This document shows, piece after piece, positions 28,807 through 64,000 of a stretch of 64,000 nucleotides of DNA. Made by a program: the position numbers and the translations under genes. Each line of letters starts with the position of its first letter. Position 1 is the stretch's first letter. Below the pieces are notes generated by a model, which worked only from the letters and a program-made list of their open reading frames with translations, ran no database searches and had not been told where the DNA came from. Location of the stretch: positions 434,001 through 498,000 of the forward strand of contig JBHGNT010000016.1 in the NCBI GenBank assembly GCA_043228905.1. Direction: 5' to 3'. This DNA is from Azolla caroliniana. Taxonomy: Eukaryota > Plantae > Polypodiophyta.

Positions 28807-28846
28807 TGTTGAACACGGTGCTCGGCCACAACCGAGGAATAGGATC
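28807..28846 (-). repeat. 40-bp remnant of the copia 3' LTR (U5 end)
   Basis: TGTTGAACACGGTGCTCGGCCACAACCGAGGAATAGGATC is identical to 32030-32069, then switches directly into RT coding sequence. Confidence 0.95.
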
Positions 28847-30492: not shown

Positions 30493-30540
30493 TGGTACAC
30501 TACGTCTCGTCGGTGGCCTTGAGTGGAAGGAGGTTCGGTT

Positions 30541-31998: not shown

Positions 31999-32014
31999 TT
32001 TCTGTGTTACCGTC

Positions 32015-32026
32015 GCTCTGATACCA
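32015..32026 (-). promoter_or_regulatory. Primer-binding site for tRNA-iMet
   Basis: Minus strand reads TGGTATCAGAGC, 3 nt downstream of the 5' LTR end. Confidence 0.95.
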
Positions 32027-32029
32027 CTT

Positions 32030-32646
32030 TGTTGAACACGGTGCTCGGCCACAACCGAGGAATAGGATCAACTCACAGAAAATAGGAAATACAAAATGCA
32101 CGAAGACAATAGAGAGAAAAGTACACAGGATGTTTTACGTGGAAAACCCTAAATGGGAAAAACCACGGAAGTCCTCAAACTCCAACTATCACTATGAACA
32201 GAGATGTACAATGGTGAAGCCACAAGGCAACAACCTTGAGCTCACTGTCTTCGCCACAAGCGGCGGTAATACACAGAGGCAACGACCTCTTCGTCTTTCT
32301 CTCTCTCTCTCTCTCTCTCGGCTGCTCCCTTCACTCTCTCTAAGTGGAAAACAGAAAATGAGCAGCAGTCACTAAACTGTTTGCCCTAAGTCATATTTAT
32401 ACACATATGACTTTCGGGCTATTTACAAATATAGCCTCAAGGGCCCTTGGCAAACATATTCACAAATATGTCCCCGCATCCGGATCTCTCTCCGGGTACA
32501 TTCATCATCCGGCTCCGTAGCCGGGGTCTTCGTCATCCGGCTCCGTAGCCGGGGTCTTCTCTTCATCATCCGATTCCGTAACCGCAACCAGGCTTGCCGT
32601 CATTCATTTCCGGACATCCCATCCGGAGGGACCGAAAATCCCAACA
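32030..32646 (-). repeat. Copia 5' LTR (617 bp)
   Basis: Minus strand TGTTGGGATT...GTGTTCAACA. TATAAATA at 32394-32401 (minus). (GA)n tract near 32298-32319. 28-bp tandem repeats in the U3 region at 32505-32580. Confidence 0.93.
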
Positions 32647-44600: not shown

Positions 44601-47600
44601 TGTCAACTCCGTCCTCAAATTTGTTAATTTCTTCATGTCTCTTGACCTGAGTTTCAAAATCTTGATTATTTAATTCCATATCAGAGCAAGCGTTGTTAGC
44701 TTCGATTCGCATGTTTGAACATAGAAATCCGATAGCACACGAGCCAGGTATGAACATTTTAATTTACCTACTTGCTGTTGTCAACTACCTCCTCAAATTT
44801 GTTAATTTCTTCATGTCTCTCGACCTGAGATTCAAAATCTTGATTATTAAATTCCATATTAGAGCTAGCGTTGTTAGCTTCGATTTGCATATTGGAACAC
44901 AGAAATCCGATATCACACGAGCCAGGTATGAACATTTTAATTTACCTACTAGCTCTTGTCAACTCCCTCCTCAAATTTATTAATTTCTTCATGTCTCTCG
45001 ACCTGAGTTTCAAAATCTTGATTATTTAATTCCATATCAGAGCAAGCGTTGTTAGCATCGATTCGCATGATTGAACACAGAAATCCGATATCACACGAGC
45101 CAAGTATAAACATTTTAATTTACTTACTAGCGCTTGTCATCTCCCTCCTCAAATTTGCTAATTTCTTAATTACTCTCGACCTGAGTTTCAAAATCTTTAT
45201 TTTTCAATTCCATATCAGAGCTAGCGTTGTTAGCTTCGATTCGCATGTTTGAACATAGAAATCCGATAGCACACGAGCCAGGTATGAACATTTTAATTTA
45301 CCTACTAGCTCTTGTCAACTACCTCCTCAAATTTGTTAATTTCTTCATGTCTCTCGACCTGAGTTTCAAAATCTTGATTATTAAATTCCATATTAGAGCT
45401 AGCGTTGTTAGCTTCGATTTGCATATTGGAACACAGAAATCCGATATCACACGAACCAGGTATGAACATTTTAATTTACCTACTACCTCTTGTCAACTCC
45501 CTCCTCAAATTTGCTAATTTCTACATGTCTGTCGACCTGAGTTTCAAAATCTTGATTTTTTAATTCCATATCAGAGCTAGCGTTGTTAGCTTTCATTCTT
45601 ATGTTTGAACACAGAAATCTGATATCACACGAGCTAGGTATGAACATTTTGATTTACTAACGCGCTCTTCTCCACTACCTCCTCAAATTTGTTAATTTCT
45701 TCATGTCTCTCGACCTGAGTTTCAAAATCTTGATTTTTTAATTCTATATCATATCAAGCATTGCTAGCTTCGATTCACATGTTTGAACACAAAAATCTGA
45801 TATCACACGAGCCAGGTATGAACATTTTAATTCCCTCCTCAAAATCGCTAATTTCTTAATGTCTCTCGACCTGAGTTTCAAAATCTTGATTTTTTAATTC
45901 CATATCAGAGCTAGCGTTGTTAGCTTCGATTCGCATGTTTGAACACAGAAATCCGATATCATACGAGCCAGGTATGAACATTTTAATTTACTTACAAGCT
46001 CTTCTAAACTCCCTCCTCAAATTTGCTAATTTCTTCATGTCTCTCGACCTGAGTTTCAAAATCTTGATTTTTTAATTCCATATCAGAGCTAGCGTTGTTA
46101 GCTTCGATTCGCATGTTTGAACACAAAAATACGATATCACAGGAGCCAGGTATGAACATTTTAATTTACCTACTAGCGCTTGTCAACTCCCTCCTCAAAT
46201 TTGCTAATTCCTTCATGTCTCTCTACCTGAGTTTCAAAATCTTGATTTTTTAATTGCATATTAGAGCTAGCGTTGTTTGCTTCGATTCGTATTTTTGAAC
46301 ACAGAAATCCGATATCACACGAGCCAGGTATGAACATTTTAATTTACCTACTAGCGCTTGTCAACTCCCTCCTCAAATTTGTTAATTTCTTCATGTCTCT
46401 CGACCTGAGTTTCAAAATCTTGATTTTTGAATTCCATATCAGAGCTAGCATCGTTAGCTTCGAGTCGCATGTTTGAACACAGAAATCCGATGTCACACGA
46501 GCCAGGTATGAACATTTTAATTTACCTACTAGCTCTTGTCAACTCCCTCGTCAAATCTTCTAATTTCTTCATGTCTCTCGACCTGAGTTTCAAAATCCTG
46601 ATTTTTTAATTCTATATCAGAGCTAGCGTTGTTAGCTTCGATTCACATGTTTGAACACAGAAATCCGATATCACACGAGCCAGGTATGAACATTTTAATT
46701 TACCTACTACCTCTTGTCAACTCCCTCCTCAAATTTGCTAATTTCTACATGTCTGTCGACCTGAGTTTCAAAATCTTGATTTTTTAATTCCATATCAGAG
46801 CTAGCGTTGTTAGCTTCGATTGGCATGTTTGAACACAGAAATCTAATATCACACGAGCTAGGTATGAACATTTTGATTTACTAACGCGCTCTTCTCCACT
46901 ACCTCCTCAAATTTGTTAATTTCTTCATGTCTCTCGACCTGAGTTTCAAAATCTTGATTTTTTAATTCTATATCATATCAAGCATTGCTAGCTTCGATTC
47001 ACATGTTTGAACACAAAAATCTGATATCACACGAGCCAGGTATGAACATTTTAATTCCCTCCTCAAAATCGCTAATTTCTTCATGTCTCTCGACCTGAGT
47101 TTCAAAATCTTGATTTTTTAATTCCATATCAGAGCTAGCGTTGTTAGCTTCGATTCGCATGTTTGAACACAAAAATCCGATATCACAGGAGCCAGGTATG
47201 AACATTTTAATTTACCTACTAGCGCTTGTCAACTCCCTCCTCAAATTTGCTAATTTCTTCATGTCTCTCGACCTGAGTTTCAAAATCTTGATTATTTAAT
47301 TCCATATCAGAGCTAGCGTTGTTAGCTTCGATTCGCATGTTTGAACACAAAAATACGATATCACACGAGCCACGTATGAACATTTTAATTTACCTACTAG
47401 CTCTTGTCAACTCCCTCCTCAAATTTGCTAATTCCTTCATGTCTCTCTACCTGAGTTTCAAAATCTTGATTTTTCAATTCCATATCAGAGCTAGCGTTGT
47501 TAGCTTCGATTCGTATGTTTGAACACAGAAATCCGATATCACACGAGCCAGCTATGAACATTTTAATTTACCTACTAGCGCTTGTCAACTCCCTCCTCAA

Positions 47601-50600
47601 ATTTTTTAATTTCTTCATGTCTCTCGACCTGAGTTTCAAAATCTTGATTTTTGAATTCCATATCAGAGCTAGCATCGTTAGCTTCGAGTCGCATGTTTGA
47701 ACACAGAAATCCGATATCACACGAGCCAGGTATGAACATTTTAATTTACCTACTAGCTCTTGTCAACTCCCTCGTCAAATCTTCTAATTTCTTCATGTCT
47801 CTCGACCTGACTTTCAAAATCTTGATTTTTTTAATTCTATATCAGAGCTAGCGTTGTTAGCTTCGATTCACATGTTTGAACACAGAAATCCGATATCACA
47901 CGAGCCAGGTATGAACATTTTAATTTACCTACTAGCGCTTGTCAACTCCCTCCTCAAATTTGCTAATTTCTTCATGTCTCTCGACCTGAGTTCCAAAATC
48001 TTGATTTTTCAATTCCATATCAGAGCTAGCGTTGTTTGCTTCGATTTGCATGTTTGAACACAAAAATCCGATATCATACGGGCCAGGTATGAACATATTA
48101 AACTCATTGCTCAAGTTTGTTACTTTCTTCATGTCTCTCGACCTGAGATTCAAAATCTTGATTTTTCTATTCCATATCAGAGCTAGCGTTGTTAGCTTCG
48201 ATTCGCATGTTTGAACACAAAAATCCGATATCACACGAGCCTGGAATGAACATTTTAATTTACTGACGCGCTCTTGTCAACTCTCTCCTCAAATTTGCTA
48301 ATTTCTTCATGTCTCTCGACCTGAGTTTCAAAATTTTGATTTTTTAATTCCATAACAGAGCTAGCGTTGTTAACTTCGATTCACATGTTTGAACACAAAA
48401 ATCCGATATCACAGGAGCCAGGTATGAACATTTTAATTTACCTACTAGCTCTTGTCAACTCCCTCCTCAAATTTGCTAATTCCTTCCTGTCTCTCTACCT
48501 GAGTTTCAAAATCTTGATTTTTTAATTTCATATTAGAGCTAGCGTTGTTTGCTTCGATTCGTATGTTTGAACACAGAAATCCGATATCACACGAGCCAGG
48601 TATGAAGATTTTAATTTACCTACTAGCGCTTGTCAACTCCCTCCTCAAATTTGCTAATTTCTTCATGTCTCTCGACCTGAGTTTCAAAATCTTGATTTTT
48701 TAATTCCATATCAGAGCTAGCGTTGTTAGCTTCGATTTGCATGTTTGAACAGAAATATCCGATATCATACGGGCCAGATATAAACATTTTAATTTACCTA
48801 CTAGCTCTTGTCAACTCCCTCCTCAAATTTGCTAATTTCTTCATGTCTCTCGACCTGAGTTTAAAAATCTTGATTTTTCAATTCCATATCAGAGCTAGCG
48901 TTGTTAGCTTCAATTCGCATGTTTGAACACAAAAATCCGATATCATAGGGGCCAGGTATGAACATTTTAATTTACCTACTAGCGCTTGTCAACTCCCTCC
49001 TCAAATTTGCTAATTTCTTCATGTCTCTCGACCTGAGTTTCAAAATCTTGATTTTTAAATTCCATATCAGAGCTAGCGTTGTTTGCTTTGATTTGCATGT
49101 TTGAACACAAAAATCCGATATCATACGGGCCAGGTATGAACATTTTAATTTACCTACTAGCGCTTGTCAACTCCCTCCTCAAATTTGCTAATTTCTTCAT
49201 GTCTCTCGACCTGAGTTTCAAAATCTTGATTTTTAAATTCCATATCAGAGCTAGCGTTGTTTGCTTTGATTTGCATGTTTGAACACAAAAATCCGATATC
49301 ATACGGGCCAGATATGAACATTTTAATTTACCTACTAGCTCTTGTCAACTCCCTCCTCAAATTAGCTCATTTCTTCATGTCTCTCGACCTGAGTTTCAAA
49401 ATCTTGATTTTTTAATTCCATATCAGAGCTAGCATTGTTAGCTTCGATTCGTATGTTTGAACTCTTGTCAACTCTTGTCAACTCCCTCCTCGAATTAGCT
49501 AATTTCTTCATGTCTCCCGACCTGAGTTTCAAAATCTTGATTTTTCAATTCCATATCAGAGCTAGCGTTGTTAGCTTTGATTCGCAGGTTTGAATACAAA
49601 AATCCGATATCACACGAGCTAGCGATGAACATTTTAATTCCCTCCTCAAATTTGCTAATTTCTTCATGTCTCCTGACCTGAGTTTCAAAATCTTGATTTT
49701 CCAATTCCATATCAGAGCTACGTTGTTAGCTTCGATTCGCATGTTTGAACACAAAAAACTGATATCATACGGGCCAGATATGAACATTTTAATTTACCTA
49801 CTAGCTCTTGTCAACTCCCTCCTCAAATTAGCTCATTTCTTCATGTCTCTCGACCTGAGTTTAAAAATCTTGATTTTTTAATTCCATATCAGAGCTAGCG
49901 TTGTTAGCTTCGATTCGCATGTTTGAACACAGAAATCCGATATCATACGGGCCAGGTATGAACATTTTAATTTACTTACAAGCTCTTTTAAACTCCCTCC
50001 TCAAATTTGCTAATTTCTTCATGTCTCTCGACCTGAGTCTCAAAATCTTGATTTTTCAATTCTATAACAGAGCTAGCGTTGTTACCTTTGATTCGTATGT
50101 TTGAATACAGAAATCTGATATCACACGAGCCAGGTATGAACATTTTAATTTACCTACTAGCTCTTGTCAACTCCCTCCTCAAATTTGTTAATTTCTTCAT
50201 GTCTGTCGACCTGAGTTTCAAAATCTTGATTTTTGAATTCCATATCAGAGCTAGTGTTGTTAGCTTCGATTCGCATGTTTGAACACAGAAATCCGATATC
50301 ACACGAGCCAGGTATGAACATTTTAATTTACTGACTAGCGCTTGTCAACTCCCACCTCAAATTTGCTAATTTCTTCATGTCTCTCGACCTGAGTTTCAAA
50401 ATCTAGATTTTTCAATTCCATATCAGAGCTAGCGTTGTTAGCTTTGATTCTTATGTTTGAACACAGAAATCCGATATCACACGAGCCAGGTATGTACATT
50501 TTAATTTACCTACTAGCTCTTGTCAACTCCCTCCTCGAATTTGTTAATTTCTTCATGTCTCTGGACCTGAGTTTCAAAATCTTGATTTTTTAATTCCATA

Positions 50601-53321
50601 TCAGAGCAAGCATTGTTAGCTTTGATTCGCATGTTTGAATACAGAAATCCGATATCACACGAGCTAGCTAATTTCTTCATGTCTGTATCATATCAGAGCT
50701 AGCGTTGTTAGCTTTGATTTGTATGTTTGAACACAGAAATTCGATATCACACGAGCCAGGTATGAAGATTTTAATTTACCTACTACTTCTTGTCAACTCC
50801 CTCCTCAAATTTGCTAATTTCTTCATGTCTGTCGACCTGAGTTTCAAAATCTTGATTTTTTAATTCCATATCAGAGCTAGCGTTGTTAGCTTCGATTTGC
50901 ATGTTTGAACAGAAATATCCGATATCATACGGGCCAGATATAAACATTTTAATTTACCTACTAGCTCTTGTCAACTCCCTCCTCAAATTTGCTAATTTCT
51001 TCATGTCTCTCGACCTGAGTTTAAAAATCTTGATTTTTCAATTCCATATCAGAGCTAGCGTTGTTAGCTTCAATTCGCATGTTTGAACACAAAAATCCGA
51101 TATCATAGGGGCCAGATATAAACATTTTAATTTACCTACTAGCTCTTGTCAACTCCCTCCTCAAATTAGCTAATTTCTTCATGTCTCTCGACCTGAGTTT
51201 CAAAATCTAGTTTTTTAATTCCGTATCAGAGCTAACGTTGTTAGCTTCGATTCGCATGTTTGAACACAAAAATCCGATATCATACGGGCCAGGTATGAAC
51301 ATTTTAACTTAGTTACTAGCGCTTGTCAACTCCCTCCTCAAATTTGCTAATTTCTTCATGTCTCTCGACCTGAGTTTCAAAATCTTGATTTTTCAATTTC
51401 ATATCAGAGCTAGCGTTGTTAGCTTCGATTCGCATGTTTGAACACAAAAATCCGATATCATACGGGCCAGGTATGAACATTTTAATTTACTTACAAGCTC
51501 TTCTAAACTCCGTCCTCAAATTTGCTAATTTCTTCATGTCTCTCGACCTGAGTTTCAAAATCTTGATTTTTCAATTCCATATCAGAGCTAGCGTTGTTAG
51601 CTTCGATTTGCATGTTTGAACACAAAAATCTGATATCATACGGGCCAGGTATGAACATTTTAATTTACTTACCAGCTCTTCTAAACTCCCTCCTCAAGTT
51701 TGCTAATTTTGTTCATATCTCTCGACCTGAGTTTCAAAATCTTGATTTTTAAATTCTATATCATATCAAGCATTGCTAGCTTCGATTCGCATGTTTGAAC
51801 ACAAAAATCTGATATCACACGAGCCAGGTATGAACATTTTAATTCCCTCCTCAAAATCGCTAATTTCTTCATGTCTCTCGACCTGAGTTTCAAAATTTTG
51901 ATTTTTTAATTCCATAGAAGAGCTAGCGTTGTTAGCTTCGATTCGCATGTTTGAACACAGAAATCCGATATCACACGAGCCAGGTATGAACATTTTAATT
52001 TACATACTTGCTCTTGTCAACTCCCTCCTCAAATTTGCTAATTTCTTCATGTCTCTCGACCTGAGTTTCAAAATCTTGATTTTTGATTTCCATATCAGAG
52101 CTAGCGTTGTTAGCTTTGATTCGTATGTTTGAACACAGAAATTCGATATCACACGAGCCAGGTATGAACATTTTAATTTACCTAGTACCTCTTGTCAACT
52201 CCCTCCTCAAATTAGCTAATTTCTTCATGTCTGTCGACCTGAGTTTCAAAATCTTGATTTTTTAATTCCATATCAGAGCTAGCGTTGTTAGTTTCGATTC
52301 GCATGTTTGAACACAAAAATCTGATATCAGACGAGCCAGGTATGAACATTTTGATTTACTAACGCGCTCTTCTCCACTACCTCCTCAAATTTGTTAATTT
52401 CTTCATGTCTCTCGACCTTATTTTCAAAATCTTGATTTTTTAATTCCATTTTAGAGCTAGCATTGTTAGCTTCGATTCGCATGTTTGAACACAGAAATCC
52501 GATATCACACGAGCCAGGTATGAACATTTTAATTTACCTACTAGCTCTTGTCAACTCCCTCCTTAAATTTGTTAATTTCTTTATGTCTCTTGACCTGAGT
52601 TTCAAAATCTTGATTATTTAATTCCATATCAGAGCAAGCGTTGTTAGCTTCGATTTGCATGTTTGAACACAAAAATCCGATATCACACGAGCCAGGTATG
52701 AACATTTTAATTTACCTACTAGCTCTTGTTAACTCCCTCCTCCAATTTGCTAATTTCTTCATGTCTCTCGACCTGAGATTCAAAATCTTGATTTTTGAAT
52801 TCCATTTTTGAGCTAGCGTTGTTAGCTTCGATTCGCATGTTTGAACACAGAAATCTGATATCACACGAGCCAGGTTTGAACATTTTAATTTACCTACTAG
52901 CGCTTGTCAACTCCCTCCTCAAATTTGCTAATTTCTTCATGTCTCTCGACCTGAGTTTCAAAATCTAGATTTTTCAATTCCATATTAGAGCTAGCGTTGT
53001 TAGCTTTGATTCTTATGTTTGAACACAGAAATCCGATATCACACGAGCCAGGTATGAACATTTTAATTTACCTACTATCTCTTGTCAACTCCCTCCTCAA
53101 ATTTGTGAATTTCTTCATGTCTCTTGACCTGAATTTCAATATCTTGATTTTTGACTTCCATTTTAGAGCTAGCTTTGTTAGCTTCGATTCGCATGTTTGA
53201 ACACAGAAATCCGATATCACACGAGCCAGGTATGAACATTTTAATTTACCTACTAGCGCTTGTGAACTCCCTCCTCAAATTTGCTAATTTCTTCATGTCT
53301 CTCGACCTGAGTTTCAAAATC
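32647..53321. repeat. 178-bp tandem satellite array, right arm
   Basis: Same monomer and orientation as the left arm. Ends abruptly mid-monomer at ...GAGTTTCAAAATC (53321). Confidence 0.97.
33067..48606. repeat. Higher-order repeat, 37 monomers (6502 bp), about 2.4 near-identical tandem copies
   Basis: Spurious ORFs recur at exactly +6502 (33269/39771/46273 and 34315/40817/47319). 37x178 -22-21-21-22+1+1 = 6502, matching the four shortened and two lengthened monomers in the unit. Confidence 0.95.
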
Positions 53322-54980
53322 ACCAAAAACAAAAAAAGTTTACACTTTGACCCCACATCTAATCCTCACCTTGATGCAATTATTAACATTAACTCTAACC
53401 CTACCCCAAAATCAAACCCTAACCCTCTCCCCATCCCTAAATCTACCCCAAAAAACAATAACTTTAATCCCAACATAACATCTAACCACAAATCCCACCG
53501 TAATCCTTGTAAACAAAATCCTTACCCTACTCCCAACCATACTAAACCCAACCCTAAAACAAAGTCTAATAGGAATCCTAACCCTAACTCTAAACCGAAA
53601 CCTAACCCTAACCATAACCCAAAACCGAACCATAACCCTAACCCGAAACCCAAACCCAATCTCACTAAGAATCTAAACCCTAAACCCCACCCAAAATCTG
53701 TAAAATACACACGCCCTTTCGGCCCTTCACAACAACCGCACCAGCGTCGCCAACAACACCCTCTTCGACCACCGCCGCCGCCACCATTACCACCATCCAA
53801 GCCTCGGCAAAAATTCTACACTTATAACATAACAACACACGAAATTACTCCGCGCCATAATTTAGATTCCAATCAATACGAACCAATAGTTAAATTTATT
53901 GGTTTCAACGAACCCGAACTTCTCCAACGAATGCAACTCCGCCATATACCTTCCGCCCCATTTCAGCCCAAAGCAAACACTATCCATAGCTTCTCCTCTC
54001 CATTTCCTCCTGAAAACAAACAACAAGTATACCTTTACCGGCATCAAAACCGAGGCCAACCTAACAATGGTTTTCAGCCGCTGCCGCCGCCGCCTCCGCA
54101 ACCGCAACACCACGAGCCCTGGAGATATATGACGGAAAGAGAACACCAAATGCACTCATATCAGCATCGACATCAACATATAAATCAACGCCAACCCAAC
54201 AATGATCTTCAGCCGCAACCGCCACCGCCACCGCCGCCACCGCCACCACCATGCGACCAGCCCTGCAAATTACAGCAGCCTCTTCTGCCGACGCCTCGAC
54301 CCCCGCCGTTTTCTCACCCTCTCCAACATCAACCTCCCTCTCGGACAACATACGAGACGGCAATTAATAACATAACCACCACCAATTATCAGCTCCAACC
54401 GCCACTTGAGGAGGACACACCACTCCACCATTCGCGAGATACCTATCATCAGATTCACCACCAGCCCCAACACACCCCATTCAGTTTCATCGCTCCCCCC
54501 TTGTATCCCTCCCCCGAAGACCTTCAACCCCAAAACAATACTCATCCTTACCCTCCTACCCATACCCACTGTGTAAATCCTAACGCTCACCCTACCCCTA
54601 ACTCTCCTTCTCTTTCGTTTTCTTTTTATACTCCTCCTAATAATTCTAGAAATACCTTTCCTACCCCCCCCTCTCACAACTATTCACACACACTAAGCCC
54701 CCCTTGGTTTAAAGAAACTACCCACAATCACAACATAAACCCTCCCCTATTTTCCCAAATACCCTTAGCCTTCCCCAACCCCTCATACACCTCTCTTAAC
54801 CCCTACATCCCTAACCACTACACCCAATCAACCCATACCCAACATCCTCCTTACACCACCTCTACCAAACCATCCACAAGTTGTATCCACCCCTCAACTA
54901 GTCACCCTAAATCCCCTATGTATTCTTCTCACATCACACTTCCCACCACTCAGAACCTCCACCGGCCAAAAAACGTTTAG
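53322..54980 (+). CDS. PLE ORF1, Pro/His/Gln/Asn-rich low-complexity protein, 5'-truncated
   Basis: About 550 stop-free codons with NP/KP dipeptide repeats, poly-Pro tracts and an internal repeat (QPNNGFQP / QPNNDLQP). The first ~57 aa in the ORF track are chance read-in from the satellite. No recognisable domain. Confidence 0.6.
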   Translation, partial: TKNKKSLHFDPTSNPHLDAIININSNPTPKSNPNPLPIPKSTPKNNNFNPNITSNHKSHRNPCKQNPYPTPNHTKPNPKTKSNRNPNPNSKPKPNPNHNPKPNHNPNPKPKPNLTKNLNPKPHPKSVKYTRPFGPSQQPHQRRQQHPLRPPPPPPLPPSKPRQKFYTYNITTHEITPRHNLDSNQYEPIVKFIGFNEPELLQRMQLRHIPSAPFQPKANTIHSFSSPFPPENKQQVYLYRHQNRGQPNNGFQPLPPPPPQPQHHEPWRYMTEREHQMHSYQHRHQHINQRQPNNDLQPQPPPPPPPPPPPCDQPCKLQQPLLPTPRPPPFSHPLQHQPPSRTTYETAINNITTTNYQLQPPLEEDTPLHHSRDTYHQIHHQPQHTPFSFIAPPLYPSPEDLQPQNNTHPYPPTHTHCVNPNAHPTPNSPSLSFSFYTPPNNSRNTFPTPPSHNYSHTLSPPWFKETTHNHNINPPLFSQIPLAFPNPSYTSLNPYIPNHYTQSTHTQHPPYTTSTKPSTSCIHPSTSHPKSPMYSSHITLPTTQNLHRPKNV

Positions 54981-55025
54981 TACGGCGTGCTAAAAGATCA
55001 AACCGACGTTTTAGACACGCCGTAC
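54968..55025 (+). promoter_or_regulatory. Candidate -1 programmed ribosomal frameshift signal
   Basis: A AAA AAC (54968-54974) in the correct phase of ORF1, a 5-nt spacer, then stem GTACGGCGTG (54980-54989) / CACGCCGTAC (55016-55025), extended by CTAAAA / TTTTAG. Confidence 0.7.
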
Positions 55026-55098
55026 ACCCAACTAAACGTGTGTGGTATTTTGTTAATGGTAACTCTACCCCCTAGATTCCTCTAATTGGCTAGGTAAC

Positions 55099-56652
55099 AT
55101 GTCACATAGAATCCCCTTTAGACCACATACAAAAAAAACACGTAAAAAGAAACTTAGATATAAATTTTGGAAACCCCTTACAACACCCTTTAGTCCCCCT
55201 CATAGTAGTAAAATCCACAACCTTTCTACACATACCCTTAGCAAGTCAGAAATTAAACTTCTTAACCTAGGTCTTAAGTTTATACCTCCCTCCCCCCTCC
55301 CCACCTCCACTTCTATTCTTCAAGAATTCCATAACCTTAGTAGATCCCTTAGACTTAGACATTTCTTTCAAGACGACTCCTCCGTCCCACACAACCCCTT
55401 TAAACTACCCAACCCCTCTTGGAACCCCCCTACACAATACCCACCGTTAGAAGACATACTTCATAAACACCTTAATCTCCTCACCATAAAACTCCATAAT
55501 ACAAACCTACCCACTAAACACATTCCACTACACCTACTACAAGCCTTAAAAAGCCTTAAAAGCAATAAACACATTATCATCCTCCCCGCAGACAAAAATG
55601 TAGGTGTTTGTGTCTTAAACAAACAAACATACCTAGATAAAGCCCTAGCTCACCTATCCGATACATCCACTTACAAACCCGTAGATACCTTCCCCTTAGA
55701 AGAACTCCTACATAGATTAAAAACCTTAATGAATCAACACCTAGGAACCCTCTCCCTCATAGAAATAAAATTCATCTTACACAAACCATCCAACGAATAC
55801 CGAGTCCCCACCATGTACTTCCTACCCAAAGTACACAAAGAACCCATTGGCTATAGGCCTATTTGTTCTTACAACGGTTCGTTATTTGAACAAACTTCTA
55901 AGTGGCTACACCACCAACTCCTCCCCATACTCCTACAACAAAAACAATACCTTAGAGACTCATTCTCCTTAGTACAATCCCTAGAAAACCTCACGACACC
56001 ACCCAATAGCTTCATCTTTTCATTTGACGTAGAATCCCTCTACCCGAGTATTCCACCAAAACTAGGACTACTAGCCCTAAAACACCTAATTACCCCCCAT
56101 TTCTCAAAACAAAAAGCCAACCTCATCTATACTCTCAGCGCCTTAACCTTAGAATATCACTTCCTTAAATTTAATAACCAAATCTATCAACAAATTAAAG
56201 GCACAGCCATGGGAAGCAATTTTTCCGTAGTATATGCTTGCCTTTTTTTGTCATACCTCGAGAATTCCAACCCATCTCCCCATTTATTTTATTTCACGAG
56301 ATATATTGACGATGCCTTTGGTGTATGGACCGGTACGAAAACACAACTCTTAGACTACCTAAATTTCTATAGTATTACCACTCAAAACTCCATTAAACTG
56401 ACCATCCAAACCTCTCTCACTAAACTTCCTTTTCTCGACCTTTGGATAAACCTCGCTAATAATAATTTCAACTTTAATTGTTTTCAAAAAGAACTTAATA
56501 CTTACCAATACATACCCTTCACCTCGACACATCCTATCCACGTCAAAAAAAGCTTCCTCTCGAACGAACTTAAAAGATACATTATTAGAGAAAGTACAGC
56601 CCAAGGTTATTTAAAAATGCAACAACTATTTTTTAAGAGACTACGAGCATGA
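55099..56652 (+). CDS. Penelope-like reverse transcriptase (main fragment)
   Basis: NLS...LLNLGLKFIP, ILPADKN, YFLPKVHK, YRPICS, SFDVESLYPSI, QIKGTAMGS, RYIDDAFGVW, PFLDL, YIPFTSTHP. The TGA at 56650-56652 falls in the expected RARGYP motif (CGA>TGA) and the frame stays open to 56857. Confidence 0.92.
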   Translation: MSHRIPFRPHTKKTRKKKLRYKFWKPLTTPFSPPHSSKIHNLSTHTLSKSEIKLLNLGLKFIPPSPLPTSTSILQEFHNLSRSLRLRHFFQDDSSVPHNPFKLPNPSWNPPTQYPPLEDILHKHLNLLTIKLHNTNLPTKHIPLHLLQALKSLKSNKHIIILPADKNVGVCVLNKQTYLDKALAHLSDTSTYKPVDTFPLEELLHRLKTLMNQHLGTLSLIEIKFILHKPSNEYRVPTMYFLPKVHKEPIGYRPICSYNGSLFEQTSKWLHHQLLPILLQQKQYLRDSFSLVQSLENLTTPPNSFIFSFDVESLYPSIPPKLGLLALKHLITPHFSKQKANLIYTLSALTLEYHFLKFNNQIYQQIKGTAMGSNFSVVYACLFLSYLENSNPSPHLFYFTRYIDDAFGVWTGTKTQLLDYLNFYSITTQNSIKLTIQTSLTKLPFLDLWINLANNNFNFNCFQKELNTYQYIPFTSTHPIHVKKSFLSNELKRYIIRESTAQGYLKMQQLFFKRLRA

Positions 56653-56857
56653 GGATACCCTACACAGTTTATCCTCAATATATTCAAAAAACACCCCTAT
56701 TCCCTTAGACCAACTCTCCTCTCAAACAAAACCATTAACCAAACCCCCACACCCATAATCTTTAAACTAAAATTCACACACCAAGCCCCTAATCTAGGAA
56801 TAAAAGAAACCCTTACTAGCCTACACTTAAACCTCCAAGAAGACCCTCTACTACAAC

Positions 56858-57312
56858 TATTATAGATCTAGATACTAACGTAAGCTTAAGATAAGGATAA
56901 TGAAAAGATAGATAGAAAGGAGAAAGAGAAAGAAGGGTGCCGATCCACCCGACCACCCCCGAGCGAAGGGATCGAGACGGACTCGAGCCTCGATCGGCGT
57001 CCCATACCACCGCCGTGGCGTCGAGTCGTACCTGGTGCTGGCGCGCTCGCTACAAGAATTGACCCACCACACGAGCAGAGTCTCGATGTAGTCAAAAGAT
57101 GATCAAATGAGGGTAGCTAGGCCTCTTATTTATAGCGAAACCCAAGGCCCCCAGGCAAGTTCACACTTGACCTAATGGGTTGTCTCAATCCCGAGGATTA
57201 AAAGTAATCCTCCCCTTCTTTACACTCTCATTTAACCCTCACACTTATCCACGTGTATAGAATACTACGGTAAATTCTTACCACGGGATATTATATGGTC
57301 ATGCCCGTAACA
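56858..57312 (-). repeat. Gypsy 3' LTR (455 bp)
   Basis: Direct repeat of 63410-63864. Minus strand TGTTACGGGC...CTATAATA. TATAAATA at 57127-57134. Confidence 0.95.
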
Positions 57313-59716
57313 TACTCCCCCTCTTTAAAACATTGCACTCTTGCAATGGAAAGTTAGGGAAGTTAGTTCTAAGAGTATTTTCGCGTTCCCATGTGGCATC
57401 TTTTATTGATTTATCCATCCATTTTATTTTGAATTCTCGGATTTCTTTAGTACGTAATTTTTTTGATTTAACATCGAGAATTCTTTCTGGTACATGTGGT
57501 TTAGAAGATAATTCTTCAGAAGTAACCAGAGTTTCAGTTGTAACTGTATTGTCGCCAGAACCTAGAAGTTCTTTTAGACGACTCACATGAAAGACTGGAT
57601 GAATTCCGACACCATCGGGAAGAGCGAGACGATAGGCTGATGACCCAATGCGTTTGAGGACTGTAAAAGGTCCACAAAACCGTGGGGCTAACTTAGCGCA
57701 CTTACCCGTAGACAATGTCTTAGAATTGTGAGGTACCCGTAAAAATACCTTCTGTCCAGGGTTGAATACACGAGGTTGCCTATGATGATCGGCATAAAAA
57801 CGCGCTCTATCTTGAGCTGTTTTTATATTATCTCGTGCAATATGCAACATATCTTGCATATCCCGAAGAAAGTTTTGCGTACTTCGCAACTCATCATGAT
57901 GTATATTAACATCAATCGGGGCTCGTGGCTGAAAACCATACATCAACATAAAAGGACTATATCCCGTCGACGTATGCTTGGAGCTGTTATAAGCAAACTC
58001 CAAAATTGGGAGATAACGTTCCCATTTTGTTGGTTTTGCACCAACGTATGCTCGAAGCATGTCCTCAATAATTTGATTTACTCGTTCTGTCTGTCCATCG
58101 GATTGAGGATGATCCGTGGAGCTCATGCTCAACGTAGTTTCTAACTTCTTAAAGACTTGTGTCCAGAAGTCACTAGTAAACTTTGGATCTCGAGCACTCA
58201 CGATATCCATCGGTAACCCATAAAAACGAAACAATTCGTCAACGAATTGGTAAGCCAATTCAGGAGCTGTTACCGTGGTTTTAGTAGCAATAAATCTGGC
58301 CATTTTAGTTAGTCGATCAACGACAACCCAGATGGCATCATGACCTTTTTGGGTGCGAGGAAGGCTAACAATAAAATCCATGGATATACTTTCCCACTTA
58401 TTATTGGGAATGTCCAAGGGATGTAAAAGTCCTGCGGCTTTAAGTCGCTCGGCTTTGTTAACCTGATACTGGTGACATTTAGTCACATAGCTATGTATGT
58501 CAGGACGCATCTTAGGCCAATAAAATTGAGTGGAGATGAGAACGAGTGTACGATGTATTCCAGGGTGCCCTGTTGAGGGTGCATCATGGCATTCAAAAAG
58601 AATCCTCTTTTTGACCTCGGGTAAATCTGGAACACAAACCTTCCCATTACGGTAGAGCAAACCGTTAGCAATGTGGAAGTATTCCTTCGAGGATGTGGTG
58701 GTGTCTGTTCCAGACTCAACTCTTGCCCAGTATTTTGCGAAATAACTGTCATCAGGATACTTTCCTCGAAGGTGATCATAAAGATCTGATGATATTTCAG
58801 TGAAGCTAAGCGTGTTAACTTCACGGATGCGACTTAGTGCATCAGCGACAGTGTTCATGGAACCTTTACGATATCGTATGGAAAAATCAAAGTCCTGGAT
58901 GAGATCAGCCCATCGTGCCTTACGACCTTTCAGGTCTTGTTGGTCACAAAAATATTTCAAGGACTCGTGGTCCGTTGTTACCACAAAGTGATTTCCATAA
59001 AGATAATGGCGCCATGTTTTGAGCGCATGTATAACTGCAAATAATTCCTTTTCTTGAACGGTATACCGACATTGAGCAGAATCAAGTTTCTTACTCTCGA
59101 ATGCTATTGGTTTACCATCTTGATACAAGACAGCACCTATAGCATAATCGCTTGCATCGGTTTCAACCTCGAAAGGTTTTGAAGGATCAGGTAAAAGAAG
59201 TGAAGGAGCCTTGAAAACTAGGTCCTTGAGTTCCTTAAATGCAAGGTCTAGTGTAGCATTCCACACAATAGGTTTTGTAGACTTACGCGTTTGACCTTTT
59301 AAAAGATCAGTAAACGGCATCGTCAATTGGGAGTAATTACGAAGAGACTTTCGCAAAAACCCCACAAAACCAAGGAATGATCGAACTTCTCGAATATTCC
59401 GAAGAGTGGGCCAAAGCTTGATTTTCTCAATGCGAGAAGGATCAATTTCAACTCCTCGTTCGGTTATGAGATGTCCTAGATAAGTAATTGATTTCTTGAA
59501 GAACTCACATTTTGAGATCTTCGCATAAAACTGTTTGTCACGCAATGTTTGTAAAACAAAGCGGACATGTCTAGCATGTTCTTGTAATGTACGGCTATAA
59601 ACTAAAATATCATCCAAGAAAATAACGACAAATTTTCCAAGTTGTTCTCGGAAAATGTCATTCATTTCTTGTTGAAAAGTAGCCGGAGCATTGGTCAAAC
59701 CAAAAGGCATAACCAA
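57299..59716 (-). CDS. Gypsy RT C-half, RNase H, integrase, GPF/Y motif and chromodomain (fragment)
   Basis: [63 protein letters not shown]...IKW...DATWE. Confidence 0.92.
57315..57326 (-). promoter_or_regulatory. Polypurine tract
   Basis: Minus strand AAAGAGGGGGAG, 2 nt upstream of the 3' LTR. Confidence 0.9.
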
Positions 59717-59902
59717 AAACTCGTAATGGCCATAGCGCGTACGAAATGTCGTTTTAGGAACATTGTCCTCACTTATTCGTATTTGATGGTAGCCAGTACG
59801 GAGATCAAGTTTCGTAAAATACCGAGCTCCCTAGAGACGGTCAATTAGATCGTCAGCCCGGGGCAATGGATACGAATTCTTGATCGTCACTTTATTCAAG
59901 CG

Positions 59903-61324
59903 TCAGTAATTAATACACATACGCCATGTGCCCTCTTTCTTTTTAACCAAGAGAACTGGTGCACCCCATGGAGATTTACTATAACGTATATAACCCATTC
60001 GTAAATAGTCCTTGAGTTGCTTAGATACCTCATCTTCTTCGGATCGACTTAAGCGATACGGAGGTATACTTATTGGTGCAACACCAGGTACAATATCTAT
60101 ACGATGGTCTATATTACGTTTAGGAGGTAACCCATCAGGTAGTTCACTTGGAAAAACATCATGAAAATCATTTAAGATTTCATCAAGTTGTTGTTGTTCA
60201 AAATATGTTAATTGAATCGGGACATTATCGATATTGTAAACGTGAATGTCCGGATCAAGTACACAATAAAATAACGTAGAACAAGACAACTCGGATATTG
60301 ATGGACACGAGGAAACAATCGAGAGGGATTGTTTTTTTACACATTGAATAAAATGCGTACAATCGTTCAGTACAAAAGAAATGGAATGACGAACCCAATC
60401 AATAAATAAAGAAGAGTTTTTATTATAAAACCAGGGATAACCCAGTATTACATCGGTGGTACAAAGATTCATTACATGGAAGTCTACTTCCTCTTTATAA
60501 GTATCAATAGAAATTCCTAATGAATGAATCGCCTCGTTGATGTATTGTACTCTTCCATCAGCCAAGTGCACCGTGTAGGTGTGATCACTTACGGTGGGTT
60601 GGATTCCCCATATCTGAACCAAACGATCATTCACAAAATTGTGTGAGCTTCCCGAATCAAATAAAAATTGTACAGGAGATCCATTGATATACCCGTTTGC
60701 ACGTAGTAAATCATTGGGACCCAATACATAGTGAGGGAAAGAACATTGACAATTACTTAAATGGTGTGTATAGACCTGAAGGACATTAGGAATCTGACCT
60801 TTATGGTCTGCAGCTTTAGCTTTGTTGTCTTGCTCTTTCCGTTGGAGCTTTCGACATTGATCTTTTGTATGACCCTTCTTTTTGCAGAATACGCAAAAAG
60901 GATGTTGTCGCTTACAATCGCGATCCAGGAATTCATTGGGTGTCTTGCGTTTCCCAACAAATTGCGACTGCTTAGTCCCGGGCGCTTCGTTGGGTTTGTT
61001 ATGGTCCTTCTTCGAAGTGCGTTGGTAGCAAAGAACTATTTCAACGGCCTCTTCGAAGGATTTTGGATCCTTATCGTGCACTATCCAGTGATAGTCCGAA
61101 TTGGGGATGCCATTGACAAAACAAGCTATCAACCAATTGTCCCCTTCTAGACCCGATTTTTGGATTTGGGTCCTAGCATGGTGAACATAGTCTTCTAGCG
61201 AGGAAAATTTCCTGCTAGAGAGGTTCATTAAAGCTTGTGCTACCTCGGTTCGAGAGGGAGGTTGCAGAAATTGGCCCTTAAAAACCGTGACAAAATCTGT
61301 CCAGGTATCAGGCAATTTCCCCAT
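59903..61324 (-). CDS. Gypsy Gag C-half, zinc knuckle, protease and RT N-terminus (fragment)
   Basis: CVFCKKKGHTKDQC, LFDSGSSHNF, DVILGYPW, LPPKRNIDHRI, SPWGAPVLLVKKK. Confidence 0.88.
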   Translation of the reverse strand: MGKLPDTWTDFVTVFKGQFLQPPSRTEVAQALMNLSSRKFSSLEDYVHHARTQIQKSGLEGDNWLIACFVNGIPNSDYHWIVHDKDPKSFEEAVEIVLCYQRTSKKDHNKPNEAPGTKQSQFVGKRKTPNEFLDRDCKRQHPFCVFCKKKGHTKDQCRKLQRKEQDNKAKAADHKGQIPNVLQVYTHHLSNCQCSFPHYVLGPNDLLRANGYINGSPVQFLFDSGSSHNFVNDRLVQIWGIQPTVSDHTYTVHLADGRVQYINEAIHSLGISIDTYKEEVDFHVMNLCTTDVILGYPWFYNKNSSLFIDWVRHSISFVLNDCTHFIQCVKKQSLSIVSSCPSISELSCSTLFYCVLDPDIHVYNIDNVPIQLTYFEQQQLDEILNDFHDVFPSELPDGLPPKRNIDHRIDIVPGVAPISIPPYRLSRSEEDEVSKQLKDYLRMGYIRYSKSPWGAPVLLVKKKEGTWRMCINY

Positions 61325-61432
61325 AGTACGGAGGCCACGCCACCAGGCGGCGGCCTTACCCCCGAGTTCTCAGCCGACATATGCAATCTTCGTACTATCT
61401 GGCATGGGATAGAGCTCAAAATGAGACTCCCA

Positions 61433-61732
61433 TCATCCCAGCCATGTGCAGATTGCTTCTTCGGTTCTTTCCTTTTTGTCTCCCGTAAATGGCTTAACGA
61501 CAAATGATGGTTCACCTTGTCGCTCATCAGGTCTATTAGTCTCACGTTGTAGACTAATGACACGTGCCTCAAGAGCACTCTGAGATTGCCGAAGTTCGGT
61601 CATCTGTTGAGCGGTGAAACTAAGGAATTGGGTTATTTGTGCCAAATACATCTCAGTGGACATTTGTCCAGGAGGATTCCCTTGAGTTCCTTCCGCTTGA
61701 GCGGATGACATCGGGTCATTAATTTGAGCCAT
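61433..61732 (-). CDS. Gypsy Gag N-terminus (fragment)
   Basis: In frame with the downstream gag (61732-61324 = 408 nt). Coiled-coil-like segment, then PFTGD...W; readthrough gives LGGKAAAWW. Confidence 0.75.
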   Translation of the reverse strand: MAQINDPMSSAQAEGTQGNPPGQMSTEMYLAQITQFLSFTAQQMTELRQSQSALEARVISLQRETNRPDERQGEPSFVVKPFTGDKKERTEEAICTWLG

Positions 61733-62897
61733 TAAAGATTATTTCTGGAAAAGAAATAGGATAAGGTCAGAGATATAGTCATAACATCATGTCGTGATGT
61801 AAACATATCATGGGCGAGCATTAATCGATATCATTATCTCACGTCAATACCCCTCTAGACGTATGAGATGAGGTTCAAGATCAGGTTACTATGGTAACAC
61901 AAAGGTGTTTTAAAAACCATGGGGGTGACAAATAAATGTCTTTCCCTGATCTCTATATCAATTTTTTCATGGTGGCTCCCCGAGGCTCAACCATGTATGT
62001 TCGCGTCATGAATAGTTTATACACGAAAAAAATGTTAACAATAAACTATGTTTCGGTGCCCACATAAGTGGTTTCGGCTCTTGAAGTCCTATTACGAGGA
62101 CCCCGAGGTGCACTTAGACCTTAAGTCTAAACATGTGTTATAGTCATATGTATCAAGGATGTTGTATGGTCTTGGTCATATTTGAACTCGAGACCTCGAG
62201 AACAAATACATTAAACACTTGAGCCAACCAAGTAAGTTGGTCTTCTCGAATGTTTAATATTTGATGCGTATAAGAGATATGCGAGGCAATTGATCATATA
62301 TGTTTTTTTAAAAGAACATATATGTCAAGGGTCCTTATTTCGCCCTCATTTACCAAAACTATGTTGGTACGTTACCTAACCTCAAGTCTCGTAATTACGA
62401 TGGCATACGCCAAAGTGCAACCTAATGGTCAAGCCAAATGAGCCCTCGTTTCGTAGTAGGCTCATGTGGGCCATCACATGGTCACGTCATTACGAATGCC
62501 TCTCGTAAGAACGAGCTCATGGTGGCATCGTATCCATGTAACAAGGGAGGGATGTTGGATACGTGCGTCATTGGAGCGACCTCACTTGAAGTGGGTCAAG
62601 CCCTACGTACTCAACATCATTATGGCTATTGCGTTTCTTTACGTAACGAAATCGAGGTCATCAACAATAAAAAATTGTTGAAAATGGGATGGTGACAACG
62701 CCATTCTCACAAAAATGTGAGGATGGCCACCAACATCCTTTTCCCGACCATGACAACTTTCGATATAATCACGTAATAACGAATATACACATATGTTTAC
62801 TTATCACATATATACGATCAAATACGTATATATGTGACCACATATGCCTATATTAAACATATCGTTATATTAAATAGCCACAAATGATGTGATCGAG

Positions 62898-63160
62898 ATA
62901 CGTAATCGAGGTATATACCTCTACGCACACGAAACATCCACAAATAAGAGATCATCGTAATACGCAATGGAGGTATTGACCTCTTACGCATACGAGACCA
63001 AACCCATATCGTTTACAACAAATCAAGGTATTGAACTCATACGCAAACGTAACATATGTTCGTGAACGTAATACGTAATTGAGGTATTAACCTCGTACGC
63101 ATACGACACTCATCACATATTATTAATATGTCAAACGAGGTATTGACCTCGTGCACATAT
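62898..63160 (-). repeat. Five palindromic repeats with dissimilar spacers in the gypsy 5' leader
   Basis: Core GAGGT-N4-ACCTC at 62908, 62970, 63025 (degenerate), 63081 and 63137. Spacing is 62, 55, 56 and 56 bp. Confidence 0.8.
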
Positions 63161-63397
63161 GTAAACGTTTTAGATAATCAATTAAAGACCACTACAACAT
63201 CATTGACTTAATGAAAAAGAATTACATATAAATTAAACACATGATTAGATGGGAGAAGAGAGAATAGAAAGAAAAATTCTGGAAAGAGTTACCGAAGTTC
63301 TTTGTTGATCGTTGTTTGGATCAAGGCCAACCGCACAACGATCGATCAGCATCAATCAAAAGACAAATGAAAAACAAAGAAACATTAGTACATAAAA

Positions 63398-63407
63398 TCT
63401 GATACCA
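63398..63407 (-). promoter_or_regulatory. Primer-binding site for tRNA-iMet (10-nt match)
   Basis: Minus strand TGGTATCAGA, 2 nt downstream of the 5' LTR end. Confidence 0.88.
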
Positions 63408-63409
63408 AA

Positions 63410-63864
63410 TATTATAGATCATAGCACTAATGTAAGCTTAAGATAAGGATAATGAAAAGATAGATAGAAAGGAGAAAGAGAAAGAAGGGTGCCGATCCAC
63501 CCGACCACCCCCGAGCGAAGGGATCGAGACGGACTCGAGCCTCGATCGGCGTCCCATACCACCGCCGTGGCGTCGAGTCGTACCTGGTGCTGGCGCGCTC
63601 GCTACAAGAATTGACCCACCACACGAGCAGAGTCTCGATGTAGTCAAAAGATGATCAAATGAGGGTAGCTAGGCCTCTTATTTATAGCGAAACCCAAGGC
63701 CCCCAGGCAAGTTCACACTTGACCTAATGGGTTGTCTCAATCCCGAGGATTAAAAGTAATCCTCCCCTTCTTTACACTCTCATTTAACCCTCACACTTAT
63801 CCACGTGTATAGAATACTACGGTAAATTCTTACCACAGGATATTATATGGTCATGCCCGTAACA
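63410..63864 (-). repeat. Gypsy 5' LTR (455 bp)
   Basis: Direct repeat of 56858-57312. TATAAATA at 63679-63686 (minus). Followed on the plus strand by TSD ACAAC. Confidence 0.95.
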
Positions 63865-63869
63865 ACAAC

Positions 63870-63961
63870 ACATCCCCAAACCAATAATTTGTTGGACTAA
63901 ATCTAAAAATCTACACTCTTCACTAGTCAACACAAAAAACATTACTATAGATCCACACTAA
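63870..63961 (+). pseudogene. C-terminal end of the PLE RT ORF beyond the gypsy insertion
   Basis: Joining 56857 to 63870 gives in-frame ...QEDPLLQHIPKPIICWTKSKNLHSSLVNTKNITIDPH* with TAA at 63959-63961. The reconstructed ORF from 55099 is 1851 nt. Confidence 0.85.
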
Positions 63962-64000
63962 CTCCTCTCCATATTTTTATTTTTTTTAAACCACAAGTTT

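What the first reader, a model, noticed from the sequence alone, without database searches (positions are those of the whole stretch)
53322..63961. Endonuclease-less, two-ORF Penelope-like element joined directly to a centromere-type satellite
Seen: removing the gypsy element and one TSD restores an RT ORF of 616 codons (one CGA>TGA) that stops just after PIICWTKSKNLHSSLV. No GIY-YIG motif is visible upstream of the RT or in the 39 nt after the stop. The sense strand is strongly A+C-rich and G-poor. Known: EN-deficient PLEs (Athena, Coprina, Selaginella elements) are telomerase-related RTs associated with chromosome ends. Inference: this is a plant EN-minus PLE family at a satellite boundary, which may mark a healed break, a former chromosome end, or a lineage adapted to satellite edges.
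Basis: partly seen in the sequence, partly recalled or inferred. Interest (0 to 1): 0.85.

Follow-up and report, generated by a model that had tools for sequence, protein, structure and literature searches.

The report
Satellite-homing retrotransposon without a cutting enzyme
This is a broken copy of a young plant jumping gene that has no DNA-cutting enzyme and sits inside, not at the edge of, a repeat array next to a chromosome tip; most young copies of its family sit in the same repeat, likely because a 14-letter stretch of its RNA pairs with loose DNA ends there.

Summary
In detail: a two-ORF Penelope-like element with a 616-codon telomerase-like RT and no GIY-YIG, split by a gypsy element. 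The setting was misread. The element runs 1,478 bp past the window, then the same 178-bp satellite resumes in register with 7 bp duplicated. It is an insertion inside a telomere-adjacent array about 560 kb long; centromere identity is untested.

In this genome 9 of 12 young insertions lie in the satellite (about 3-8% of the DNA), against 5 of 38 sampled insertions of sister families. Copies end at the pLTR/ORF1 boundary, whose tail holds a 14-bp palindrome matching a satellite site (50,635 sites, control 51). Five of 9 satellite junctions use that site in exact register, and a contig from another organism label shows a further one. Target duplications run from 7 to 1,274 bp, and 5 of 6 copies face opposite to telomere extension.

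Best reading: priming on host-made DNA ends, steered by tail-satellite pairing (inferred, 0.62). I found no such case in 10 literature searches, but three key papers were not available. The scan noted related ends elsewhere in this genome.

The parts
1..53321 (+). 178-bp satellite array (with a copia-type insert at about 28807-32646); part of an array running from the telomere at contig base 3.5 kb to about 563 kb
53315..53321 (+). CAAAATC, the 7-bp target duplication at the 5' junction (last 3 bases also fit the element); repeated at the 3' junction beyond the window
53322..54980 (+). 3' two-thirds of ORF1 (Pro/Asn/His/Thr-rich, low complexity); copy is 5'-truncated at unit position 977, so the conserved N-terminal helical part is missing
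55099..56857 (+). ORF2, PLE reverse transcriptase, codons 1-586 (DKN, FDVESLY, YIDD motifs); premature stop at 56650-56652
56858..63864 (-). Ty3/gypsy chromovirus-type element inserted into the RT thumb region; LTRs about 455 bp, 98.7% identical; 5-bp duplication ACAAC
63870..63961 (+). last 30 codons and stop of ORF2; no endonuclease follows
63962..64000 (+). start of the 3' untranslated region. It continues beyond the window in L013: pyrimidine tract; TATA-like box and type I hammerhead motif with a 2-bp palindromic stem III (L013:717-811); pseudo-LTR with six single CCCTAAA heptamers ending at the family's common 3' end (L013:716-1478); satellite resumes at L013:1480 at the palindromic site matching the tail at 13 of 14 bases

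Best explanation
The window holds a dead, 5'-truncated copy of a young two-ORF, endonuclease-less Penelope-like element sitting inside a telomere-adjacent 178-bp satellite, and its family likely inserts by priming reverse transcription on host-made 3' DNA ends that pair with a short tail in its RNA, a tail that matches this satellite. Shown: the anatomy, the lack of an endonuclease, the satellite enrichment, the fixed 3' end at the pLTR/ORF1 boundary, the in-register match of the tail palindrome to one satellite site on either strand, and target duplications of 7 to 1,274 bp. Inferred: (1) RNA starts near the TATA box/hammerhead of an upstream pLTR and reads through the downstream pLTR; (2) a broken or stalled DNA end anneals to the tail and the RT copies from this internal start; (3) the cDNA stops at a variable point and rejoins the chromosome at or behind the priming site, which duplicates the stretch between; (4) the strand bias would fit nascent lagging-strand ends at forks moving outwards, which is the weakest step.
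For: Enrichment: 9 of 12 distinct insertions at 98% identity or more are satellite-flanked; satellite is about 2.5-7.6% of the assembly, P = 2e-8 at 8%; sister families 5 of 38, Fisher P = 1.2e-4. Tail: 3' ends stop at one position plus 0-16 nt of the next unit's start; the degenerate palindrome has 50,635 sites against 51 for the reversed control, only 8 on the 37-Mb contig C1. Five of 9 satellite junctions fall on it at 12-13 of 14 matches, null 1.7% of positions, P = 1.7e-7, at mirror-symmetric positions 73/74 (minus strand) and 56 (plus strand), while nine 5' junctions are scattered over the monomer. Independent data: a contig of run X9 (another organism label and study) leaves the element at the tail into the same site with AATCATGATTTT; one of X10 enters the satellite at a second AATC site. 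No fixed cut: duplications of 7, 24-27, about 360-390 and 1,274 bp in this family (99.8% against 94-96% for other registers) and 119, 125, 286, 818, 982 bp in five sister copies outside the satellite, with 2-6 nt of microhomology visible at the duplicated sites. Telomeric repeats fill the 5' junction of one interstitial sister copy, as expected of a free end. No endonuclease-bearing PLE was found in the genome.
Against: Small numbers (9 junctions), and the tail hypothesis was formed on the same junctions it was tested on; only two outside junctions are new. Four of 9 satellite junctions and most non-satellite ones use only short matches, and a 6-7 nt match alone puts only 21-25% of target sites in the satellite. 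Two of 5 sister-family satellite junctions fall inside the same palindrome without a matching tail (P = 0.08), so the site may be a break hot spot. Three of 12 young and 7 of 8 older copies lie outside the satellite. The window copy has the minority polarity, and the family's bias alone is not significant (8 of 10, P = 0.11; all families plus outside contigs 14 of 17, P = 0.013). Satellite arrays and unplaced contigs may be misassembled or redundant. Nothing here shows RT, ribozyme or promoter activity.
Confidence: 0.62

Rival explanations
1. Fragile-site or retention model: all endonuclease-less families patch any break using 2-7 nt of microhomology; the subtelomeric satellite simply breaks more often (the A/T-rich palindrome being a hot spot) or tolerates insertions better, and the tail match is incidental.
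For: Sister families also enter the satellite (5 of 38), two inside the palindrome without a tail match; short microhomologies suffice elsewhere; older copies are mostly outside the satellite.
Against: Sisters are far less enriched (P = 1.2e-4) and not above an 8% background (P = 0.18); this family's junctions keep the exact pairing register on both strands whereas the sisters' do not.
Confidence: 0.22
2. A nuclease supplied in trans (a host structure-specific nuclease or another retrotransposon's endonuclease) nicks the satellite at A/T-rich sites and the PLE RT uses the nick.
For: The window copy has a short, TSD-like 7-bp duplication; junctions favour AAAAT; the genome has an SLX1-like GIY-YIG gene (SLX1 label recalled) and a LINE-like insert was seen by eye.
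Against: Duplications range up to 1.3 kb with no fixed length and 5' junctions are scattered; no endonuclease-bearing PLE among 61 of 377 and 71 of 639 candidates scored.
Confidence: 0.1
3. One reading: classical terminal attachment to a telomeric overhang or healed chromosome end, later buried by satellite growth.
For: The window copy has the classical polarity (5' end towards the telomere, C-rich sense strand); the pLTR keeps six single CCCTAAA heptamers; one family copy (C60) ends on telomeric repeats.
Against: Satellite in register on both sides with a duplication and no telomeric repeats at the window's junctions; 5 of 6 copies with a known telomere face the other way; none of the 7 placed left ends whose telomere boundary was visible carries a 5'-capped element in classical polarity.
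Confidence: 0.06

Closest known systems
Coprina-clade endonuclease-less PLEs (Selaginella moellendorffii Sm1/Sm2; fungal Coprina, incl. two-ORF Coprina-1_Alen, PMC13159263)
   Same: Telomerase-like RT without GIY-YIG, type I hammerhead in the pLTR, C-rich sense strand, 5' truncation, two ORFs as in Coprina-1_Alen; RT groups at 100% support with Selaginella, Cryptomeria and Gb proteins.
   Different: Known members attach to G-rich telomeric overhangs and sit between telomeric repeats. Here copies are internal, carry variable target duplications, mostly face the other way, and end at a tail matching a satellite, not at telomeric repeats.
PLE-X families of Selaginella and Chara (Craig et al. 2021, PMC8557442)
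   Same: Endonuclease-less plant PLEs that insert internally, some at one site of a tandem repeat (28S rDNA); the paper leaves the mechanism open.
   Different: PLE-X belong to the Chlamys clade, with a CxC motif and an N-terminal extension; P0001 has no such motif and the target here is a satellite.
Poseidon PAc of Anolis (Frangieh et al. 2024, PMC11167929)
   Same: Internal start of reverse transcription near the pLTR/ORF boundary, leaving a variable tail.
   Different: PAc cuts its target with GIY-YIG and starts at an RNA site not homologous to the target; here there is no nuclease and the start site matches the target.
Endonuclease-minus group II intron RmInt1 (PMC6698660)
   Same: Works-like comparison: an RT without nuclease that uses RNA-DNA pairing for site choice and nascent lagging-strand ends as primers, with an orientation bias.
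   Different: No reverse splicing here; pairing is 4-14 nt and tolerant; lagging-strand priming is only inferred.
Athena/Terminon elements of bdelloid rotifers
   Same: Two ORFs, no endonuclease, hammerhead, priming by RNA complementary to a host repeat.
   Different: They extend telomeres using telomere-complementary repeats; no named Athena RT was available for the tree.

Membership tests
Penelope-like elements | RT related to telomerase RT, with DKN and core motifs | tested here: met
   Model pLDDT 89.6; the 12 best Foldseek hits are all telomerase RTs, best E 2.9e-12, TM about 0.4; D165-K166-N167, D310, D404-D405 conserved
Penelope-like elements | Tandem units forming pseudo-LTRs, 5' truncation, short 3' tail | tested here: met
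   6,124-bp head-to-tail units on C32 and C96; varied 5' ends; 3' ends within 0-16 nt of one position
Penelope-like elements | Hammerhead motif in the pLTR | tested here: met
   Core and stems I-III in 11 aligned copies of several families, 93 of 93 cells paired but no compensatory change; Rfam score 23 bits, below the cut-off of 52; the lowest-energy fold is an alternative one; one old copy has a changed core; cleavage not tested
Penelope-like elements | Spliceosomal intron in the pLTR region | not testable with these tools
   No RNA holder listed
Coprina (EN-minus) clade | No GIY-YIG endonuclease at either end | tested here: met
   none of the 32 rows of its clade carries PF01541
Coprina (EN-minus) clade | RT phylogeny with Coprina references | tested here: inconclusive
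   100% clade with a Selaginella protein and gymnosperm proteins inside a 63-row group without GIY-YIG that includes a Microbotryum protein (quick tree, SH-aLRT only, P0002 left out). No sequence labelled Coprina or Sm1/Sm2 was available.
Coprina/Athena telomeric elements | Attachment to the G-rich telomeric overhang: 5' end distal, telomeric repeats at the junctions, restricted to termini | tested here: not met
   Internal insertions with duplications; 5 of 6 face the other way; many copies on chromosome arms
Coprina/Athena telomeric elements | Reverse-complement telomeric repeats beside the hammerhead | tested here: inconclusive
   Six single CCCTAAA heptamers, never in tandem, 160-480 nt past the hammerhead; copies do not end there
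PLE-X (Chlamys clade) | CxC motif, N-terminal extension, 28S rDNA target | tested here: not met
   No cysteine in the 160 residues before the DKN motif of P0001; targets are satellite or other DNA
Centromeric satellite | CENH3 binding; one array per chromosome | not testable with these tools
   Shown only: satellite at 14 of 22 left and 4 of 21 right contig ends, at both ends of C8, C14 and C17

The most novel reading that the evidence does not exclude
An endonuclease-less PLE family has retargeted the telomere-priming trick of its clade to a host satellite: a 14-nt palindrome in its RNA acts as a short guide that captures broken or nascent DNA ends in the 178-bp arrays on either strand. If these arrays are the centromeres of telocentric chromosomes, it is a centromere-homing PLE. 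The same break-primed route, with duplications up to 1.3 kb, would explain how nuclease-free PLEs spread along whole chromosomes.
Probability: 0.4. Interest if true: 0.86.

Novelty: new variant of a known kind. Interest (0 to 1): 0.72.

Why it matters
Endonuclease-less PLEs are described as generally restricted to chromosome termini, and how some reach internal or targeted sites without a nuclease is stated as open (PMC8557442). This genome has at least six such families with long intact RT frames along chromosome arms, junctions that record the mechanism, and one family whose RNA tail matches its preferred target. That makes the question testable with one enzyme and a tail swap. It also points to a route by which a telomerase-related RT acts at internal breaks and adds duplications of up to 1.3 kb to satellite arrays.

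Tried and rejected
Boundary or former-end reading: rejected. Hidden or spliced GIY-YIG: none by Pfam, motif scan or custom profile; longer relatives gave 8 proteins, one with PF01541 at 26% identity. A sixth family with longer open frames was checked as a possible nuclease donor in 10 copies and has none. ORF1 function: no Pfam match over a cut-off, no relative in the protein collection for residues 85-300, Atlas best score 0.77; only its N-terminal helical part is conserved, 34% with family 2. PDB sequence search gave 0 hits. Expression: no RNA holder listed. Rfam microRNA hits in L013 are the satellite inversion, not RNA genes. The telomere pattern search listed only C2, so ends were read directly. 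The duplication scan gave no clear result for C46, C60, C52, C12, C8R and C654; for C35/C136, C8L and C479 the best matches (91-96%) cannot be told from ordinary monomer similarity. Look-ups of earlier findings by words, sequence and near place were empty. [quoted passage not shown] 2017 and the conifer PLE paper were not held.
Full report
OBSERVATION. The window is G000:C16:434001-498000 of a 523-Mb assembly with 22 contigs over 12 Mb. Satellite of period 178 fills 1-53321. At 53322 the element begins; ORF1 ends at 54980. ORF2 starts at 55099, has a TGA at 56650-56652, and is split by a gypsy element at 56858-63864 (gag, protease, RT, RNase H, integrase, chromodomain) with a 5-bp duplication; it ends at 63961, 616 codons in all. 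Eight other places encode this protein at 100% without stops. The window copy is 99.2% identical to an uninterrupted 6,124-bp unit and starts at unit base 977, so it is young but dead.

IT IS AN ENDONUCLEASE-LESS PLE. A model from a 40-sequence alignment has pLDDT 89.6 and its 12 best structural matches are telomerase RTs. In a quick tree of 120 proteins it sits in a 100%-supported clade of 32 rows with Selaginella, Cryptomeria and Gb proteins, none with GIY-YIG. A profile from 24 PLE endonuclease domains recognises 46 stored proteins but nothing in the window, in 198 loci or in the plant clade. The only PF01541 match in the genome, of 9 candidates, is an intron-containing gene that looks like SLX1 (label recalled). 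An endonuclease-bearing PLE protein matches only through its RT in all 61 of 377 candidates scored. Beyond the window lie a pyrimidine tract, a conserved TATA-like box and a type I hammerhead motif with a 2-bp palindromic stem III, the dimer-type design described in PMC4209133 (passages read). Cleavage was not tested and there is no covariation.

IT IS NOT AT A BOUNDARY. The element ends 1,478 bp beyond the window and the satellite resumes on the same strand and in register, with CAAAATC duplicated. The array runs from the telomere at 3.5 kb to about 563 kb of C16 (sampled stretches), so the copy is about 487 kb from the tip and about 64 kb inside the inner edge. Satellite was found at 13 of 21 left ends read, plus C13, and at 4 of 21 right ends; it follows the telomere directly at 6 of 7 placed ends where that boundary was visible and on five unplaced contigs. 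No right end had telomeric repeats, so the assembly is likely incomplete there. The satellite is telomere-adjacent; a centromere role is neither shown nor excluded.

THE FAMILY PREFERS THE SATELLITE. Two searches (40 of 275 and 40 of 144 candidates scored; both ran down into other families) gave 20 distinct insertions, counting tandem arrays and copies with shared junctions (C35/C136, C96, C32, C189, C13) once. Ten are satellite-flanked. At 98% identity or more it is 9 of 12, below that 1 of 8. The satellite is 2.5-7.6% of the assembly by motif counts; P = 2e-8 at 8%. As controls I read 8 young insertions of family 2, 20 copies picked from the rows at 61-66% identity and 10 high-ranking rows of a sixth family: 5 of 38 are in the satellite (Fisher P = 1.2e-4 against the young copies, 0.004 against all 20). 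These controls are top-scoring copies, not a random sample.

THE JUNCTIONS. The 3' ends stop at one position, give or take a few bases, and carry 0-16 nt of the next unit's start, GGAAAATCATGATTTT, just before the conserved ORF1 start. This holds a 14-bp palindrome. With its centre left free it occurs 50,635 times in the assembly against 51 for the reversed control, and only 8 times on C1: nearly all sites are likely satellite. With the empty site inferred from neighbouring monomers, 5 of 9 satellite junctions match the tail at 12-13 of 14 (null 1.7%, P = 1.7e-7) and 8 of 9 have an exact run of 4 or more (null 23%, P = 6e-5); the tenth copy (C60) ends on telomeric repeats and was left out. The five sit at monomer positions 73, 73, 73, 74 on the minus strand and 56 on the plus strand, mirror images about the palindrome, whereas nine 5' junctions are scattered. 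Contigs of six public runs were laid on the tail: X9 (another organism label) shows a junction not among those found in this assembly, at the same site with a near-perfect match, and X10 one at a second site; the other listed loose ends at the tail were two old non-satellite junctions also present here. Against this: 2 of 5 sister junctions also fall in the palindrome, out of register and without a close tail match, and 6-7 nt matches alone would put only 21-25% of targets in the satellite.

NO FIXED CUT. Duplications are 7 bp (window), 24-27 bp (C2), about 360-390 bp (C15) and 1,274 bp at 99.8% (C57; other registers 94-96%); the other ten copies scanned gave no clear value. Among the 20 sister copies five outside the satellite show 119, 125, 286, 818 and 982 bp; in two of these (286, 818) the duplicate ends about 200 and 700 bp before the mapped 5' end. 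Microhomologies of 2-6 nt are visible at such sites, and one copy has telomeric repeats filling its 5' junction. Polarity: 8 of 10 family copies in the satellite, and 14 of 17 over all families and outside contigs, lie antisense to the satellite's telomere-C strand (P = 0.11 and 0.013); 5 of 6 with a known telomere point their 3' end at it (P = 0.22). The window copy is an exception.

MECHANISM. I commit to priming on host-made ends, steered by the tail (0.62). A broken or stalled 3' end pairs with the tail inside the RNA, the RT copies towards the 5' end, stops early, and the cDNA rejoins at or behind the priming site, which duplicates what lies between. These steps are inferred from junctions. 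The polarity would fit nascent lagging-strand primers if forks move outwards, as known for the group II intron RmInt1 (PMC6698660, passages read); that step is the weakest. Rivals: fragile site or retention (0.22), borrowed nuclease (0.10), buried terminal attachment (0.06).

COMPARISON. Craig et al. 2021 (PMC8557442; passages and section 9 read) describe Athena and Coprina as attaching to telomeric overhangs, and leave open how the EN-less PLE-X families reach rDNA or genome-wide sites. Frangieh et al. 2024 (PMC11167929; parts 1-2 of 4 read) show internal initiation at a site not homologous to the target in an EN-bearing PLE. A two-ORF Coprina between telomeric repeats is in PMC13159263 (passages); a 2025 plant review names only the Selaginella case among plant telomeric PLEs (PMC12477314; passages and section 7). 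By protein this is most likely a Coprina-clade member; by behaviour it fails the terminal-attachment test. Ten searches (listings only, apart from the papers named) showed no satellite-targeted EN-less PLE. The founding 2007 paper, the Terminon paper and the conifer paper were not held, and no supplements were opened; they may describe interstitial copies. Two earlier notes of this scan concern other pieces of this genome; one calls the host a fern, which I did not test.

VERDICT. Real feature, setting corrected, new variant of a known kind. Interest 0.72.

Noticed in passing
window 28807-32646: Copia-type LTR element (gag and integrase frames on the minus strand, read by eye; 55% GC) inside the satellite; its two ends share only a 44-bp match, so one LTR looks cut short.
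   Followed up: partly
window 33000-48000: Higher-order repeat of 6,502 bp in the satellite, about three close copies.
   Followed up: no
L013:5917-7416 (G000:C16 about 503.9-505.4 kb): 1.5-kb inversion inside the satellite; more diverged monomers follow towards the inner edge.
   Followed up: no
window 56858-63864: The gypsy LTRs end in TA rather than CA on their sense strand and are 98.7% identical; a long non-coding stretch separates the 5' LTR from gag.
   Followed up: no
L074:3713 (G000:C7 left end): Telomere joined directly to the middle of ORF1 of a family 2 element whose 3' side faces the tip: a chromosome end that looks broken inside a PLE and healed.
   Followed up: partly
L113/L114 (C22 about 8.945-8.968 Mb), L109/L110 (C400), L112/L116 (C29): Head-to-tail arrays of 3-5 near-identical family 2 units (about 5.6 kb), two of the three outside the satellite.
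   Followed up: partly
L184:3764-3788 (C4 about 8.70 Mb): Three telomeric repeats as filler at the 5' junction of an interstitial copy with a perfect 119-bp duplication.
   Followed up: partly
L199-L208 (e.g. C13 about 8.84 Mb): A sixth, more distant EN-less family on chromosome arms with a related ORF1 (by eye), RT frames without an early Met, and no hammerhead found by my pattern.
   Followed up: partly
L031 (C96:61961-62723): Solo pLTR starting at the TATA-like box, with the same 3' junction as the tandem array 1.9 kb upstream.
   Followed up: no
L117:7739-9227 (C294): LINE-like RT fragment (by eye) inserted in the pLTR of a family 2 copy whose 5' end lies 2 kb from a telomere.
   Followed up: no
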